Positions 30,099 to 46,698 of a DNA stretch of 47,608 nt are shown one piece after another. This stretch comes from a virus (Duplodnaviria > Caudoviricetes), in IMG/VR virus record IMGVR_UViG_3300049437_000015, positions 1-47,608 of that record; one strand, written 5' to 3'. A program made the position numbers and the translations under genes. The number at the start of each line of letters is the position of its first letter. The stretch's first letter is position 1. Under the pieces are notes generated by a model. The model saw only the letters and a program-made list of their open reading frames with translations, was not told the origin of the DNA and searched no databases.

Positions 30099-31157
30099 AT
30101 GATGAACGAAAAACAAATACTAACGCATTCCTCAATATCGACATTCAAAAAATGCCGTCGCCGATACTTTTGGGAATACGAGTGCGGCATTCGCGGAAAG
30201 ATTGATGGTAAGGCATTGCGAATTGGATCAACCGGACATACGGCTTTGGAGTTTTTCAAGCGAGACGGAAATCTCGAAAAGGCACTCGAAACCATCGATT
30301 GGTATTACGCGTTACTGACCGACCTTTCGGATGACGAAATTAAGTACGAGAAAAAAACGGTCGCTTGTTTGGTGGCCGGATACGTTTGGCGATGGGCGAA
30401 CGCTCCGCTAGAAATCATTGCCACGGAACAGTCGTTTAATGTGCCACTGTTCAATCCTTCTACAAAATCAAGTTCGTTGATATTCGACATTGCCGGAAAG
30501 ATCGACGGAATTGTTCGGTTGCAAGATCAACGATTAGCCGTCCAAGAACATAAGTTCTTATCTGAGCAAATTGACGACGACTCCGATCTTTGGCGACGGT
30601 TACAAATCGATCAGCAGATAACTGTTTATGTCATGGTGGCGAGACGCATCGGACATAACGTCGATACTGTTCTCTACGATATTATTCGCAAGCCGACGAT
30701 CAAGCCCACGCCGGTTCCAGTGCTTGACGACAACGGCATGAAAATCGTTTTGGATAAAGACGGCAATCGCCCAATGACTGCCAGGGGCCAATTCTATCAG
30801 ACTGGCAACGCCGAAAAGGGACTCGTATTGCAACAGCGCGAAATGACCGCCGATGAATGGGGCAAGAAGCTCTTGGACGATATCGGCGAACGGCCTGATT
30901 TTTATTACGTTCGCAAAGAAGTCCCCCGCCTCGATGATGAGATTATCGAATTTCAGTACGAGCTTTGGGACATTCAAAAAACGATTAGAGCCGCCCAAAA
31001 CGAACAACGGTGGTTCAAAACCGTTAGCTCTGATACGTGTGATTATTGTTCATTTCGTGCGCTGTGTTTATCAAAGTACAATCCTTCCGATCCGTTGCTG
31101 GAAGGCTTTATAAAGATTGACGACGTTCACCCGGAACTCAAATCAGATTCATTTTAG
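30099..31157 (+). CDS. PD-(D/E)XK exonuclease (RecB/Cas4-like, Fe-S Cys)
   Basis: THSSISTFKKCRR, IGSTGH, AGKIDG...EHK, Q...Y, CDYCSFRALC. Confidence 0.85.
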   Translation: MMNEKQILTHSSISTFKKCRRRYFWEYECGIRGKIDGKALRIGSTGHTALEFFKRDGNLEKALETIDWYYALLTDLSDDEIKYEKKTVACLVAGYVWRWANAPLEIIATEQSFNVPLFNPSTKSSSLIFDIAGKIDGIVRLQDQRLAVQEHKFLSEQIDDDSDLWRRLQIDQQITVYVMVARRIGHNVDTVLYDIIRKPTIKPTPVPVLDDNGMKIVLDKDGNRPMTARGQFYQTGNAEKGLVLQQREMTADEWGKKLLDDIGERPDFYYVRKEVPRLDDEIIEFQYELWDIQKTIRAAQNEQRWFKTVSSDTCDYCSFRALCLSKYNPSDPLLEGFIKIDDVHPELKSDSF

Positions 31158-31166
31158 GAGGAAATC

Positions 31167-31988
31167 GTGAAACCAGTATTGGCTCCAAATCGACCTAATA
31201 CACCGGCGGCAAGTGTCGCGGCGCAACAGCCAGCAAGAGATTTACAAATCTCTCGTGGCATCAACGTGCAAGCCCAAAAGATAATTCTTTACGGCCCCGG
31301 CGGCGTTGGTAAGTCATCGTTGGCGGCATCACTAAAAGATTCCGGCATCGACCCGTTGTTTATCGACTTCGACGAAGGGAGCAATTTTTTAGATGTTGCC
31401 CGCGTCGTTCCGCAAACGCTCGACGAGACGCGTCGTATTTTGCAAAACCGTGAAATGTTTCAACCGTTCGGGGCCATTGTTTTAGACTCGCTTACGAAGG
31501 CCGAGGAAGTCGCTACGGCATGGACGCTCGCCAATGTGCCGCACGAAAAAGGCCACGCCGTCAAATCCGTGGAAGGATACGGATTTGGAAAGGGCTACCA
31601 ACACGTTTTTGAGACGATGTTGATGCTCTTGGGCGACTTGGACGCCGTGGCCCGCAGCGGCAAGCACGTCGTTTGTATCGCCCACGAATGCGTGGCTAAT
31701 GTTCCCAACCCGCAGGGTGAGGACTTCATTCGCTACGAGCCGCGTTTACAGTCGCCTGCTTCCGGCAAGTCATCGGTTCGTCTCCGCGTCAAGGAATGGG
31801 CCGACCACCTGATTTTTATAGGCTACGATCAGGTCATTAAGGACGGTAAGGCGACCGGCGCGGGCACGAGAACGATCTACACCACAGAAAGGCCGACGCA
31901 CATGGCGAAGTCTCGCTCGCTTGATGAAGCCTTTCCTTATCAACTCAACGACCTAACCCTTTGGAACAAACTTTTTAACAAGGAATAG
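31167..31988 (+). CDS. Sak4-like AAA ATPase (single-strand annealing)
   Basis: YGPGGVGKS, VLDSLT, GFGKGY, VCIAH, VKEWAD, AKSR. Confidence 0.85.
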   Translation: MKPVLAPNRPNTPAASVAAQQPARDLQISRGINVQAQKIILYGPGGVGKSSLAASLKDSGIDPLFIDFDEGSNFLDVARVVPQTLDETRRILQNREMFQPFGAIVLDSLTKAEEVATAWTLANVPHEKGHAVKSVEGYGFGKGYQHVFETMLMLLGDLDAVARSGKHVVCIAHECVANVPNPQGEDFIRYEPRLQSPASGKSSVRLRVKEWADHLIFIGYDQVIKDGKATGAGTRTIYTTERPTHMAKSRSLDEAFPYQLNDLTLWNKLFNKE

Positions 31989-31991
31989 AAC

Positions 31992-32657
31992 ATGGGAAAC
32001 CCATTGTCACAAGCTGGAGTGTTTCGCGGACAGATTATCAGTTACGGACTTTACGAACCTGGAAAAGACGGTTCGCAATCGTTGGCAATCAGCGTTGTCG
32101 CCCATATTCAAGATGCGTGGGACGGCGAAAAGCAAGAGTGGATCGATTGGCGCGAGTACGAATTGGAAGGCGAAGGCGATCTTTGGATCGTCAAGCGAAC
32201 CGGCGAATTGATTCAAAACCAAATCAATAATCTCGTTAAACACGCCGGATGGGACGGTGATGTCATGTCGGTTGCCGAACGGCGATGGGTTTCAACTCCA
32301 TGCCAGTTTGTGGTCAACGAAGAAAAAGATCCGAACGGCAAGTACGACACCAAGTTCAAAATAGCCTTCATCAACGCTTGGGATAGCGTTCCTGGGGCTG
32401 GGCGGCAGTTCCTTGACCCACAGAAGGCTAAAGCCATTGCCGACCGTTATGGACCCCAATTAAGGGCTTTGACGGGATCGATCAAGCAGAACTCCGTAGT
32501 GCCTTCGACCAAGAAGCCTTCGATACCGTCCAAGCCCATCGCTCCTAAGCAACAGGAAATCAATCGGCTCAATCAATCGGTTCCCGATCCGACCGGCGGA
32601 TTTGACAACGACATCAACGCCGAACTGAACCAGCAAGGCGACGATATTCCGTTTTAA
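31992..32657 (+). CDS. Single-stranded DNA-binding protein (DUF669-like)
   Basis: Follows Sak4-like gene; acidic tail GDDIPF. Confidence 0.7.
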   Translation: MGNPLSQAGVFRGQIISYGLYEPGKDGSQSLAISVVAHIQDAWDGEKQEWIDWREYELEGEGDLWIVKRTGELIQNQINNLVKHAGWDGDVMSVAERRWVSTPCQFVVNEEKDPNGKYDTKFKIAFINAWDSVPGAGRQFLDPQKAKAIADRYGPQLRALTGSIKQNSVVPSTKKPSIPSKPIAPKQQEINRLNQSVPDPTGGFDNDINAELNQQGDDIPF

Positions 32658-32739
32658 GTAACCACGACCAACGAACAGAAAGGAGTTATGCGTGTAATGG
32701 ACAATCCTGGGCTGGATTGCAGGAGCGTCCCGCCTTTAT

Positions 32740-32871
32740 GCGGCAGCGGCGTGGATGGATGACACGCAAATCGTGGATTGGGTCAAGCAAAGGCCGGAAG
32801 GCAAAGCTTATGCGGCGTTCGATTCGCCGACCACGAGGATAGCTAAGCCGGTTCGATTCCGGCCTGCCGCA
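32740..32871 (+). ncRNA. tRNA-like RNA with a second tRNA-like minihelix in place of the anticodon arm
   Basis: Acceptor GCGGCAG/CTGCCGC, D-arm GCGTG/CACGC, T-arm GCCGG-TTCGATT-CCGGC; inner TCGTGG/CCACGA with CGGCG-TTCGATT-CGCCG. Confidence 0.7.
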
Positions 32872-32908
32872 CTAAACCATTCGGAAATCACTAACAGTTG
32901 GAGGAGTT

Positions 32909-33124
32909 ATGACAAGCGGAAGCGATTACGTATTTCCCGTTCCCAGTTCAAGCGAGTACGGCCTCACTAAACGCGAGCTATTCGCGGCGATGGCGATGCA
33001 AGGATTAGTGACAAATGGAAATATCAACGTAAATGGAAAGCGGATCGCGGAAGCCACAGAGTATGCAAAGGCCGCTGTAGCTATTGCCGACGCGCTCATC
33101 GAAGCCCTCAACGTGAAGGAGTAA
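32909..33124 (+). CDS. Conserved phage hypothetical protein
   Basis: GLTKRELFAAMAMQG...AVAIADALIEAL family motif; GGAGG SD. Confidence 0.8.
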   Translation: MTSGSDYVFPVPSSSEYGLTKRELFAAMAMQGLVTNGNINVNGKRIAEATEYAKAAVAIADALIEALNVKE

Positions 33125-33126
33125 TC

Positions 33127-33303
33127 ATGCCCGAACGAGAAAGCGGCTGGTATTTTGTTAAGTACAACGGTAACTGGATGATCGCGTCGTATAATCCTGC
33201 GTTCGATACACTACCGTGGCTGATTACTGATTCTGAGGTATGGCTTCAAGACAGAGATTTTGAAGAAATCGGCGAACGGATCAAAATGCCGGACGAGGAA
33301 TAG
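33127..33303 (+). CDS. Small hypothetical protein (58 aa, not in ORF track)
   Basis: AAGGAG SD; RESGWYFVKY...EIGERIKMP. Confidence 0.6.
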   Translation: MPERESGWYFVKYNGNWMIASYNPAFDTLPWLITDSEVWLQDRDFEEIGERIKMPDEE

Positions 33304-33307
33304 AGCG

Positions 33308-33572
33308 AGTTGCGAACGTGGAACCGCTGCCACGCTAAACAAAGACGGGCAACTAGTGCCGAGTCGTGTTTGCGGCCTTGTGCCGCCTGAAACCGTGCGG
33401 AGGCATTTACTCGGCAATCTCCGTGAACGGGCCGACTTAGGCGGAGCGGATAGTCACTCCTGCATTTTGGGACCGATTATTCGCATGTACCGTCGAAGCC
33501 TAAGTGCGACGGGATGAATGGTTCTACTGGACCAGGAGAGCCGCGAGCCTGCATGAGGCGAACAGCGGCGTT
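33308..33572 (+). ncRNA. Putative structured RNA/leader with pseudoknot potential
   Basis: Four stem domains and two loop complementarities (see findings). Confidence 0.5.
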
Positions 33573-33586
33573 TTAAGGAACAGCAA

Positions 33587-34471
33587 ATGAGAGACTATGG
33601 AAAAGTAGCACCGACGTTCTGGACAGGTGAGACAGGCCGCGACTTGCGAAAAGCAAGCAAGGATGCGCAGCTCGTCGCACTCTACTTATTGACGTGCGGA
33701 TCATCCCACATGAGCGGTATTTATTACCTCGCGCTGCCGACGCTTTGCCATGAGTTAGGCCTGACAATACGAGGGGCTTCAAAGGCCCTTCAAAGGGTCG
33801 AGAAGACGGGCTTCGCCTACTTCGATGCCCCTTCGGAAGTCGTTTTTGTGCCCGAAATGGCCCGCTTTCAGATCGGCGAACGGTTGGAACCAAAAGATAA
33901 CCGACACAAGGGCTTAATCAAGTACCTTGAAAACTATCGTAAGTCCTTATTCTACAAGGACTTCTATACTCGATACAAGGTGTCGTTTTCGCTGCCGGAA
34001 CCAAGCCCCTTTGAAGCCCCTTGCAAGGGTCGCGTGCGCACGCGCGCAGAACAGGAGCAGGAACAGGAGAAAGAACAGGAGCTAGAGCAGGATCAGGAAA
34101 AAGAGAAAGAACAGGAACAGGAAACCTATTGCGGCGAGCCGTCAGAGACGGCATCTCCGCCGAACGCCGTATTCATCTTTCCCACGGTCGGCAAGGAACC
34201 GCACGAATACCCACTTCTCGAATCCAAGGTCGCCGAATACCAAGAGACCTTCCCCGGCTTGAACGTCATCGCGGAATTGCGTAAGGCCCTTCAATGGTGC
34301 AAGGATCGTCCGACCAATAGAAAGACCAACGCTGGAATGCCAAAGTTTCTCTTCGGCTGGTTGAGCCGAACCCAGGACCGAGGAGGGTCAAAAGGAAACG
34401 CCGATCCTAGAGGAACCATTGCGGCCATGCAGGGCTATCTCGCTCTAAAGGAGTCGGAAGCCAATGAATAA
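33587..34471 (+). CDS. Replication initiator (replisome organizer-like)
   Basis: MRDYGKVAPTFWTG...ALYLLT N-terminal wHTH type, EQEQEQEKEQE linker, helical C-terminus ..KFLFGWLSR. Confidence 0.8.
   Translation: MRDYGKVAPTFWTGETGRDLRKASKDAQLVALYLLTCGSSHMSGIYYLALPTLCHELGLTIRGASKALQRVEKTGFAYFDAPSEVVFVPEMARFQIGERLEPKDNRHKGLIKYLENYRKSLFYKDFYTRYKVSFSLPEPSPFEAPCKGRVRTRAEQEQEQEKEQELEQDQEKEKEQEQETYCGEPSETASPPNAVFIFPTVGKEPHEYPLLESKVAEYQETFPGLNVIAELRKALQWCKDRPTNRKTNAGMPKFLFGWLSRTQDRGGSKGNADPRGTIAAMQGYLALKESEANE
33771..34123. repeat. Iteron-like GCCCCTT/CCCTT-N2-AAGGGTCG repeats plus CAGGAR purine repeats; candidate origin
   Basis: CCCTTCAAAGGGTCG (33786), CCCTTGCAAGGGTCG (34018), AAGCCCCTT (34003, 34014), inverted AGGGGCTT (33772). 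Confidence 0.5.
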
Positions 34472-46490: not shown

Positions 46491-46566
46491 GCGCAAAGCC
46501 TTTACTGTCCCCACCGCCCGGAGATCATGGACGATTGCAGTCAGGATGACACGGGCGGTACTTTGA

Positions 46567-46655
46567 GTCACCTTAGCTCAATGGTAGAGCGAGCGTTAAA
46601 GTAGGCCGAAATCGAAAAGGAACGCTAGATCATGGTTCGACTCCATGAGGTGGCT
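46567..46655 (+). tRNA. tRNA-like gene with canonical acceptor, D and T arms but an expanded anticodon loop (identity undetermined)
   Basis: GTCACCT/AGGTGGC, TA, GCTC-AATGGTA-GAGC, AGCGT/ACGCT with 25-nt loop, CATGG-TTCGACT-CCATG; no encoded CCA. Confidence 0.75.
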
Positions 46656-46698
46656 TTGCAAGAAATATAAATGGCCGGGTAGTCTAAGCGAGGTGGCT

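What the first reader, a model, noticed from the sequence alone, without database searches (positions are those of the whole stretch)
32699..32873. tRNA nested within a tRNA: double T-arm RNA with no anticodon
Outer element: acceptor GCGGCAG/CTGCCGC (32740-32746/32864-32870) with discriminator A, 2-nt linker, D-arm GCGTG-GATGGATGA-CACGC with the GG, and T-arm GCCGG-TTCGATT-CCGGC. Where the anticodon arm should be is a second acceptor-like stem TCGTGG/CCACGA (32771-32776/32831-32836) with its own T-arm CGGCG-TTCGATT-CGCCG and a GCC-GGAA-GGC hairpin. A GGAC..TCCTG/CAGGA..GTCC hairpin precedes it. It cannot decode, but presents two tRNA elbows: a possible decoy for tRNA-targeting defence nucleases, an RNase P/Z processing signal, or a Y-RNA-like scaffold.
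Basis: seen in the sequence. Interest (0 to 1): 0.8.

Follow-up and report, generated by a model that had tools for sequence, protein, structure and literature searches.

The report
Two-elbow tRNA mimic, T5 RNA2 relative
This phage gene is predicted to fold like a transfer RNA whose codon-reading arm is replaced by a second, miniature tRNA-like corner; it belongs to a large uncatalogued family of phage RNAs that includes the unexplained RNA2 of phage T5, and it is likely cut out by host enzymes and may act as a decoy for tRNA-gripping proteins, which is untested.

Summary
The element is real (32740-32871, +), but it is not a tRNA inside a tRNA. It belongs to a phage RNA family with a constant tRNA-like frame (7-bp acceptor, CG linker, 5-bp D stem closed by GA/GA, T arm) around unrelated 26-134-nt inserts; I recovered 89 distinct members. 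Acceptor pairing (48 of 51) and D-loop/T-loop covariation support a real elbow. A model trained without the window or T5 scores the window 60.5 bits and T5 RNA2 (GenBank: 'tRNA-like stable RNA with unknown functions') 40 bits; T5/T4 tRNAs score at most 20.2. RNA2 also has an inner T arm. Five diverged phage or metagenome sequences share the window's insert, with double changes at 15 of 17 pairs: a D-stem-less mini-elbow, in a different order from RNA2's. Four of the five carry a 6-nt palindrome, so homodimers are possible. No Rfam match, anticodon, encoded CCA, Ro60, RtcB, fixed partner gene, antisense target or expression evidence. Best guess: a host-processed, stable, non-decoding tRNA mimic that titrates elbow-binding proteins. 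The scan met T5 RNA2 relatives and such frames before on other DNA.

The parts
32740..32871 (+). Whole RNA gene (predicted mature form about 132 nt): tRNA-like frame plus mini-elbow insert
   Evidence: model R1 (trained without this sequence) 60.5 bits, E 1e-11; single copy in the record
32740..32746 (+). Acceptor stem 5' strand (pairs with 32864-32870); U32739 can pair with A32871
   Evidence: family test 48 of 51 with at least 6 of 7 pairs against 4.8 in shuffles; -1:73 pair in 63 of 89
32747..32767 (+). CG linker and family D arm: 5-bp stem, GA/GA, 5-nt loop with GG
   Evidence: Linker CG in 79 of 89; D-loop covaries with the outer T-loop; compensated D stems in T5-like members
32771..32836 (+). 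Insert: 6-bp closing stem (32771-76/32831-36) in the anticodon-stem position
   Evidence: 6 of 6 pairs with changes on both sides in 5 sequences
32777..32783 (+). Unpaired D-loop-like strand (AWTGGGT), predicted partner of the inner T-loop
   Evidence: Invariant A, TGGGT in 5 of 5; a similar strand lies 3' of the inner T arm in T5 RNA2 and its relatives; tertiary contact inferred
32785..32809 (+). Middle helix (32785-88/32806-09) with apical GGAA-capped hairpin (32793-32802), where an inner anticodon arm would be
   Evidence: 4 of 4 and 1 of 2 pairs with double changes
32813..32829 (+). Inner T arm, followed by a bulged purine at 32830
   Evidence: 4 of 5 pairs with double changes, loop invariant in 5 of 5
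32840..32845 (+). Self-complementary hexamer in the single-stranded linker before the outer T arm; possible homodimer site
   Evidence: 6-nt palindromes (three different sequences) in 4 of 5 insert homologues, 4-nt in the fifth, against 4 of 72 other members; noticed after the fact, not family-wide
32847..32871 (+). Outer T arm (32847-63), acceptor 3' strand (32864-70), A32871; no encoded CCA
32699..32730 (+).
   Evidence: -13.7 kcal/mol, z -1.67; not seen before homologues
30099..32657 (+). Upstream co-oriented genes: PD-(D/E)XK exonuclease, Sak4-like annealing protein, 221-aa protein without family hit (SSB-like by position and acidic tail, my inference)
32909..34471 (+). Downstream co-oriented genes: small phrog_2201 protein and DnaD-like helicase loader

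Best explanation
The gene encodes a member of the T5-RNA2-type frame family, predicted to fold as a tRNA upper half carrying a second mini-elbow instead of an anticodon arm; it is likely cut out of the early transcript by host RNase P and 3'-trimming enzymes and would then act in trans as a stable, non-decoding tRNA mimic that ties up host proteins gripping the T arm, elbow and acceptor stem, most plausibly tRNA-attacking defence effectors. Shown by sequence comparison: family membership, secondary structure of frame and insert, covariation of the outer elbow contacts, absence of an anticodon. Inferred: the inner elbow contact, transcription with the recombination genes, processing, stability. 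Hypothesis only: the target, the anti-defence role, homodimer formation.
For: The frame keeps what RNase P and elbow readers need (7+5-bp stack; established knowledge, and a 7-bp acceptor stem is named as the major RNase P determinant in PMC4201824, passages) and keeps nothing that charging or decoding needs. Acceptor sequence, 3:70 pair and discriminator are free. Elbow covariation: A18 with G55 in 11 of 11, G18 with U55 in 18 of 19, G19 with C56 in 29 of 29, A19 with U56 in 2 of 2. Inserts fall into 79 clusters among 89 members, yet single insert types are conserved with covariation, which fits selection in an arms race. No fixed neighbour gene among 57 loci; 1-3 copies per complete phage genome in 5 of 5 searched. 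Mostly outside cellular genomes: the same pattern gave 24 distinct members in 120 metagenome loci and 2 in 120 genome loci. T5 RNA2 is kept at 80% or more of its length in 418 of 438 matching phage records and lies in the tRNA region, which is an anti-defence region in T5 (PMC11555353, passages). At least one defence nuclease, Cas12a3, loads tRNA by T arm, acceptor stem and CCA (PMC12851939, passages).
Against: No expression, processing or binding data. Two RNA runs hold the phage only as scattered low-depth contigs across the genome. No sigma-70-type promoter or terminator was found nearby. The anti-defence activities mapped in the T5-like tRNA region were a tRNA-Tyr and an ORF, not a tRNA-like RNA, in the passages seen. 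Characterised phage tRNA counter-defence works by replacing cut tRNAs, not by decoying. Only 5 of 58 members found without demanding an inner T-loop have a closed inner T arm, so the second elbow is not general to the family. A D-loop-like motif is not enriched in inner-T inserts overall (14 of 21 against 30 of 62, p 0.21; my pattern also missed the window's own variant). The elbow covariation may reflect a few clades rather than many independent events.
Confidence: 0.4

Rival explanations
1. A cis-acting punctuation mark: RNase P and 3' processing at the frame cut the early polycistronic transcript between the recombination genes and the downstream genes, and the compact fold blocks exonucleases; the released RNA is a by-product.
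For: It sits between co-oriented genes with no promoter or terminator found. In a crude nearest-ORF pick, 68 of 104 neighbours lie on the same strand. RNase P processes phage M3 and C4 RNAs and mRNAs (PMC11143913, passages). No fixed partner gene.
Against: It does not explain why a specific 79-nt insert is conserved with 15 of 17 covarying pairs and invariant loops across diverged sequences, nor RNA2's place among T5 tRNA genes, where cut sites already abound.
Confidence: 0.22
2. The frame is only a carrier for release and stability, and each insert is an aptamer or guide for its own target, unrelated to tRNA recognition; here the inner T-loop is a folding module.
For: Inserts are unrelated (79 clusters of 89) and most lack a T arm. 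T-loop/GG modules are general RNA folding motifs (own knowledge).
Against: No antisense target for this insert in the genome: 16 hits of 11 nt against a mean of 10.4 for random windows, nearly all from the T arms and frame, none longer than 14 nt. The inner loop keeps the full tRNA T-loop consensus in 5 of 5, and several inserts carry canonical tRNA D arms (L386, L343, L539).
Confidence: 0.22
3. A split tRNA: the inner element is excised like an intron and the outer halves are ligated into a working tRNA, as proposed for Lak phage tRNA introns.
For: True tRNA-in-tRNA loci exist among the phage hits (L053, L007, L075, L107, read by eye), and a Lak tRNA-Thr intron may encode a tRNA (PMC6784885, passages).
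Against: The frame has C8 (88 of 89) and no conserved anticodon halves or junction; CCA is encoded in 1 of 89; no RtcB gene in the record (record 68% complete). The inner unit lacks a 7-bp acceptor.
Confidence: 0.05
4. A decaying tRNA pseudogene or chance juxtaposition without function.
For: Modest folding z-score; no close relative by blastn in 50,697 phage records.
Against: Compensatory changes throughout frame and insert; conservation of RNA2 across T5-like phages.
Confidence: 0.04
5. A Y-RNA-like tether for a Ro60 protein.
For: [quoted passage not shown]
Against: No TROVE gene in the record (control rang in 2 of 14 genomes); no conserved neighbour in 57 loci; no Rfam match.
Confidence: 0.03

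Closest known systems
Phage T5 RNA2 (rna2, T5s06; NC_005859 32959-33083), annotated 'tRNA-like stable RNA with unknown functions'
   Same: 7-bp acceptor with a -1:73 pair, CG linker, 5-bp D stem closed by GA/GA, A before a GCMGG T arm, a stem in the anticodon position holding a second T arm and a TGG(G)T strand. Detected by a frame model trained without it, 40 bits.
   Different: The insert has another order and sequence: RNA2 has the T arm first and the D-like strand after it; the window type has the D-like strand, then a hairpin, then the T arm. RNA2 has a small hairpin before the outer T arm; the window type has a palindrome. RNA2 lies in a tRNA cluster; this gene lies among recombination and replication genes.
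Phage T5 RNA1 and T4 RNA C / RNA D (stable tRNA-like RNAs of unknown function)
   Same: tRNA-like ends around a non-tRNA middle, 120-145 nt.
   Different: One T-loop each; RNA1 has a leucine-type D arm. T4 RNA C scores 20.2 bits with the frame model, the level of ordinary tRNAs; RNA1 was not reported at E up to 1.
allo-tRNAs and tRNA-Sec (Mukai et al., PMC5389517; sections 13 and 16 read)
   Same: Long D stem with a tetraloop; two short-insert members give weak tRNA-Sec matches (31.3 and 25.8 bits, threshold 47). Some allo-tRNAs are not used in translation.
   Different: allo-tRNAs have 8/4 or 9/3 branches, an anticodon arm and a long variable arm; this family is 7/5 with no anticodon arm.
Bacterial and phage Y RNAs (YrlA; PMC4201824, passages)
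   Same: Non-decoding RNA with a tRNA-like D/T/acceptor domain; one member is cut by RNase P.
   Different: No Ro60 neighbour here, no Rfam match, and the frame closes the 5' and 3' ends of the RNA.
Lak phage tRNA-Thr intron that may encode a tRNA (PMC6784885, passages)
   Same: A tRNA-like unit inside a tRNA-like unit.
   Different: There the outer gene is an ordinary tRNA that also exists without the intron; here the outer frame is not a decoding tRNA.

Membership tests
T5 RNA2-type frame RNAs | 7-bp acceptor, CG linker, 5-bp D stem closed by GA/GA, A + GCMGG T arm | tested here: met
   One descriptor without fixed D-stem or linker sequence finds the window, T5 RNA2 and T5-like variants
T5 RNA2-type frame RNAs | Detection by an independent covariance model above tRNA background | tested here: met
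   R1 (15 sequences, none T5-like, none with inner T arm): window 60.5, RNA2 40, T5-like variants 30-35, T5/T4 tRNAs at most 20.2 bits. The Acinetobacter-phage RNA2-like hit L597 was not reported.
T5 RNA2-type frame RNAs | Second T arm inside a stem at the anticodon position | tested here: met
T5 RNA2 proper (same insert) | Homologous insert with T arm first and D-like strand after | tested here: not met
   Order reversed; blastn of the window finds no phage record; insert model R2 gives RNA2 29.3 bits, no more than frame-only members
T5 RNA2-type frame RNAs | Expressed as a discrete stable RNA | not testable with these tools
   Only low-depth contigs available; for T5 I saw only the GenBank note
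Canonical tRNA (RF00005) | U8, A14, 5-bp anticodon stem with 7-nt loop | tested here: not met
   C8; no anticodon loop; ARAGORN and Rfam miss it
Intron-split or nested tRNA | Outer halves rebuild a tRNA after excision; inner unit is a complete cloverleaf | tested here: not met
Y RNA (YrlA) | Encoded beside a Ro60/TROVE gene | tested here: not met
   (record 68% complete)
Y RNA (YrlA) | Binds Ro60 | not testable with these tools
   Needs co-purification
tmRNA | G3.U70 alanine identity, CCA end, tag reading frame | tested here: not met
   G3-C70 here; G.U at 3:70 in 2 of 89; only 17-nt T-arm matches of about 12 bits
allo-tRNA / tRNA-Sec | 8/4, 9/3 or 8/5 branch with anticodon arm and long variable arm | tested here: not met
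   7/5 branch (often with a -1:73 pair), no anticodon arm; sub-threshold tRNA-Sec scores only
C4/CI-type RNase P-processed antisense RNAs | Complementary target sites in the same phage genome | tested here: not met
   exact matches of 10 nt or more only; shorter or host targets not tested; record incomplete

The most novel reading that the evidence does not exclude
Phages have evolved a natural tRNA-scaffold display system: a constant frame borrows the host's tRNA processing to release and protect hundreds of different cargo RNAs. The cargo type seen here pairs with a second copy through its palindrome to present four tRNA elbows, making a multivalent RNA-only inhibitor of tRNA-gripping antiphage effectors, and giving T5 RNA2 its long-missing function.
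Probability: 0.15. Interest if true: 0.88.

Novelty: new variant of a known kind. Interest (0 to 1): 0.56.

Why it matters
T5's 'tRNA-like stable RNAs of unknown function' are annotated but unexplained. This work places RNA2 in a large frame family (about 510 stored IMG/VR stretches match one pattern, and 58 of 119 fetched loci gave distinct members) and supplies covariation for the elbow. It also names tractable systems: T5 in E. coli, Caulobacter phage DMCA and cyanophage Pan3. If the mimic blocks tRNA-targeting defences, it would be a counter-defence made of RNA alone and not based on replacing tRNAs. If it is a carrier, it is a natural library of phage RNA aptamers.

Tried and rejected
Rfam at gathering score: nothing in the window, only a neighbouring tRNA in 18 homologue loci; E-value scan gave T-arm fragments only. 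blastn against phages: no match. Exact close-homologue pattern: 0 in viral contigs. Synteny via the upstream 221-aa protein: one 55% relative, but no locus in viral or metagenome contigs. T4 RNA C and D: one T-loop each, not homologous. RNA runs X1 and X2: 4 and 2 contigs in 28-37 kb (one X2 contig spans 32627-32913) and 21 and 6 in 2-21.5 kb, depth 2-4, so no evidence of expression or habitat. Family-wide palindrome before the T arm: 40 of 83 against 32.9 shuffled (p 0.053), 6-mers 9 against 6.8 (p 0.23), rejected as a family trait. D-loop-like motif in all inner-T inserts: not significant. Association with phrog_2201: seen near the window and three loci, but my motif test gave 1 of 38 against 0 of 42, not supported. 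T4-type RNA ligase search: nothing rang, control included, so uninformative. Host assignment: portal protein matches only about 24-25%; 0 of 3 planctomycete-type genomes matched R2; host unknown. T5 st0 deletion mutant keeps rna2, so it says nothing on dispensability. Literature: ten searches found no paper on this frame family or on RNA2; the older T5 RNA papers and catalogues of candidate phage RNAs (recalled, not seen) and all supplements were not checked, so the family may be listed there.

Full report
Setting. The window is a 47.6-kb linear virus record, 68% complete by CheckV, with terminase, portal, capsid-protease and tape-measure genes and an early block of exonuclease, Sak4-like annealing protein, DnaD-like loader, RusA and methyltransferases. 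The element lies on the + strand in the gap between a 221-aa gene (31992-32657) and a small phrog_2201 gene (32909-33124), co-oriented with both. The host is unknown.

Observation. ARAGORN and Rfam miss the element. Energy alone is weak (z -2.08), and the lowest-energy fold loses the inner T arm by 1.3 kcal/mol, so homologues were needed.

The frame family. A loose double-T-loop pattern hits about 2100 stored viral stretches; 110 of 131 matches in the 127 fetched loci have both T stems closed, but these are mixed kinds. Patterns on the unusual D arm gave 374 D-arm matches, 99 frames and 89 distinct frames counting the window. The frame is a 7-bp acceptor, a CG linker (79 of 89), a 5-bp D stem closed by GA/GA, a variable insert of 26-134 nt, an A (83 of 89) and a T arm. 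The D-stem sequence was fixed by my patterns, so its invariance there means nothing; compensated D stems came from the T5-like members and L154. Because the descriptor demanded acceptor pairing, I tested it separately on the loci, fixing positions only by D arm and T arm: of 119 loci, 58 had a closed T arm, 51 were distinct, and 48 of these paired at 6 or 7 of 7 positions against a mean of 4.8 (maximum 12) in 1000 shuffles. Pairing continues to -1:73 in 63 of 89 and then drops to about 40-50%. The elbow covaries in the 31 members with a 4-5-nt D-loop and 7-nt T-loop: A18/G55 11 of 11, G18/U55 18 of 19, G19/C56 29 of 29, A19/U56 2 of 2; 2-nt D-loops go with 8-nt T-loops in 40 of 42. These counts are sequences, not independent events. 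Nothing needed for charging or decoding is kept: C8 in 88 of 89, free 3:70 pair and discriminator, CCA encoded in 1 of 89. Inserts form 79 clusters. No neighbour gene is shared by more than two of 57 loci; the annotated neighbours are recombination, replication and packaging genes. The same pattern gave 24 distinct frames in 120 metagenome loci and 2 in 120 cellular-genome loci; model R2 found 5 hits in the 100 of those 120 genome loci given and one weak hit in 11 more; 9 were not given.

Link to T5 RNA2. Earlier notes of this scan pointed to T5's tRNA-like RNAs, so I fetched the T5 region. RNA2, annotated 'tRNA-like stable RNA with unknown functions', folds with the same frame and an inner T arm. 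A model built from 15 frames, none T5-like and none with an inner T arm, scores the window 60.5 bits, RNA2 40 bits and three T5-like variants 30-35 bits, while tRNAs of T5 and T4 and T4 RNA C reach at most 20.2. RNA2 is matched over at least 80% of its length in 418 of 438 phage records, and its inner T stem shows compensatory changes by eye. Later look-ups showed that the scan had already described RNA2 as a two-elbow mimic and met such frames elsewhere; these are unchecked notes and I rely on my own calls.

The insert. Three homologous inserts were picked by eye (L356, L299, L387) and a fourth, L337, was found by the model built on them (85 bits); L321, L571 and L426 give the same 135.5-bit score as the training sequence L299 (L321 and L571 read identical). 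In the five distinct sequences, 94% of cells pair and 15 of 17 pairs change on both sides; 0 of 500 shuffles reach this, and slid controls give 36-44%. The structure was drawn from these sequences, which favours it over the controls. The order is closing stem, an invariant unpaired AWTGGGT strand, a helix capped by a GGAA/GAAA-type hairpin, a T arm with invariant loop, a bulged purine, closing stem. That is tRNA order without D stem or anticodon: a mini-elbow, not a tRNA. RNA2 has the same two parts in reverse order. The inner GG/T-loop contact is inferred from invariance only. An inner T arm is a minority cargo: 5 of 58 frames found without demanding it. Some frames do carry fuller tRNA remnants with canonical D arms (L539 in cyanophage Pan3, L386, L343), so tRNA pieces are a recurring source of cargo.

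A palindrome. The linker before the outer T arm holds a 6-nt self-complementary word in 4 of the 5 insert homologues, in three different sequences (TAGCTA, TGGCCA, GTGCAC), and a 4-nt one in the fifth, against 4 of 72 other frames. The change from TAGCTA to TGGCCA is compensatory for a symmetric dimer. This was noticed after the fact, rests on five sequences and does not hold family-wide; it is a lead.

How it most likely works. Step 1 (inferred): co-transcription with the early genes, since no own promoter was found (sigma-70 type only). Step 2 (inferred from the 7+5 stack and covarying elbow): RNase P cuts at the acceptor and 3' trimming follows; RNase P is known to cut phage non-tRNA RNAs (PMC11143913, passages) and a Y RNA with a 7-bp acceptor (PMC4201824, passages). 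Step 3 (shown by sequence): the product cannot decode. Step 4 (hypothesis): it competes for proteins that grip the T arm, elbow or acceptor. Cas12a3 is one defence effector that does so (PMC12851939, passages). Against step 4: in the T5-like tRNA region the mapped anti-retron factors were a tRNA-Tyr and an ORF (PMC11555353, passages). I put 0.40 on the trans-acting mimic, 0.22 each on punctuation and on a carrier with unrelated cargo, and 0.12 on splicing, decay and Y RNA together. No Ro60 or RtcB gene was found in the record, and no antisense target.

Known and new. It works like a tRNA upper-half mimic (as YrlA or the tmRNA tRNA-like domain do; the latter from my own knowledge) but fails their membership tests. 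It is a member of the T5-RNA2-type frame family and not a homologue of RNA2's insert. A distant origin from tRNA-Sec or allo-tRNA is possible: long D stem with tetraloop (PMC5389517, sections 13 and 16) and sub-threshold tRNA-Sec scores for two short members. Ten literature searches found no description of the family or of RNA2's function; most subscription and older papers are outside the library and I read no supplements. Verdict: real, conserved, function unknown and testable in T5; a new variant of a known but unexplained kind; interest 0.56.

Noticed in passing
window 46566-46656 (+): A second tRNA-shaped gene with canonical D and T arms but a 6-bp anticodon stem closing a 23-nt loop and no CCA; ARAGORN calls it Thr(agt), Rfam does not reach threshold. 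Probably another non-decoding tRNA-like RNA on a different frame.
   Followed up: partly
window 33305-33585 (+): Long gap before the DnaD-like gene made of several hairpins (z -1.88); no Rfam match.
   Followed up: partly
window 32688-32762 (+): A 24-codon ORF after a purine-rich, ribosome-binding-like stretch runs through the upstream hairpin and stops in the D-loop of the RNA; possibly a gene remnant or a leader peptide.
   Followed up: no
L053, L007, L075, L107, L016 (around the matches): By eye, whole tRNA or tRNA-like genes sit inside the anticodon loop of another phage tRNA (Arg, Glu, Gln, Thr hosts).
   Followed up: no
L020, L024, L045, L082, L122: A conserved ~100-nt phage element with three T-loop hairpins inside one closing stem.
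   Followed up: no
L036, L135, L028, L095: Leucine-type or other tRNA frames that also carry an inner T arm, so the second-T-arm cargo occurs on more than one frame.
   Followed up: partly
L356 708-740; L217 1492-1872; L178 1322-1604; L408 146-393: Tandem or nearby second frames: in L356 a second frame starts directly after the first and has no matching T arm in view; L217, L178 and L408 hold two frames with different inserts.
   Followed up: partly
L539 2502-2663 (Pseudanabaena phage Pan3), L538 2498-2631 (Caulobacter phage DMCA), L540 383-527 (Komagataeibacter phage phiKX1): Unannotated frame RNAs in cultured phages; the Pan3 insert contains a degenerate tRNA with canonical D and T arms, the nearest thing to a true nested tRNA in this family.
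   Followed up: partly
L597 345-492 (Acinetobacter phage AB1I1M-1): An RNA2-like insert with inner T arm on a frame whose D arm differs; partly overlapped by an annotated hypothetical ORF.
   Followed up: no
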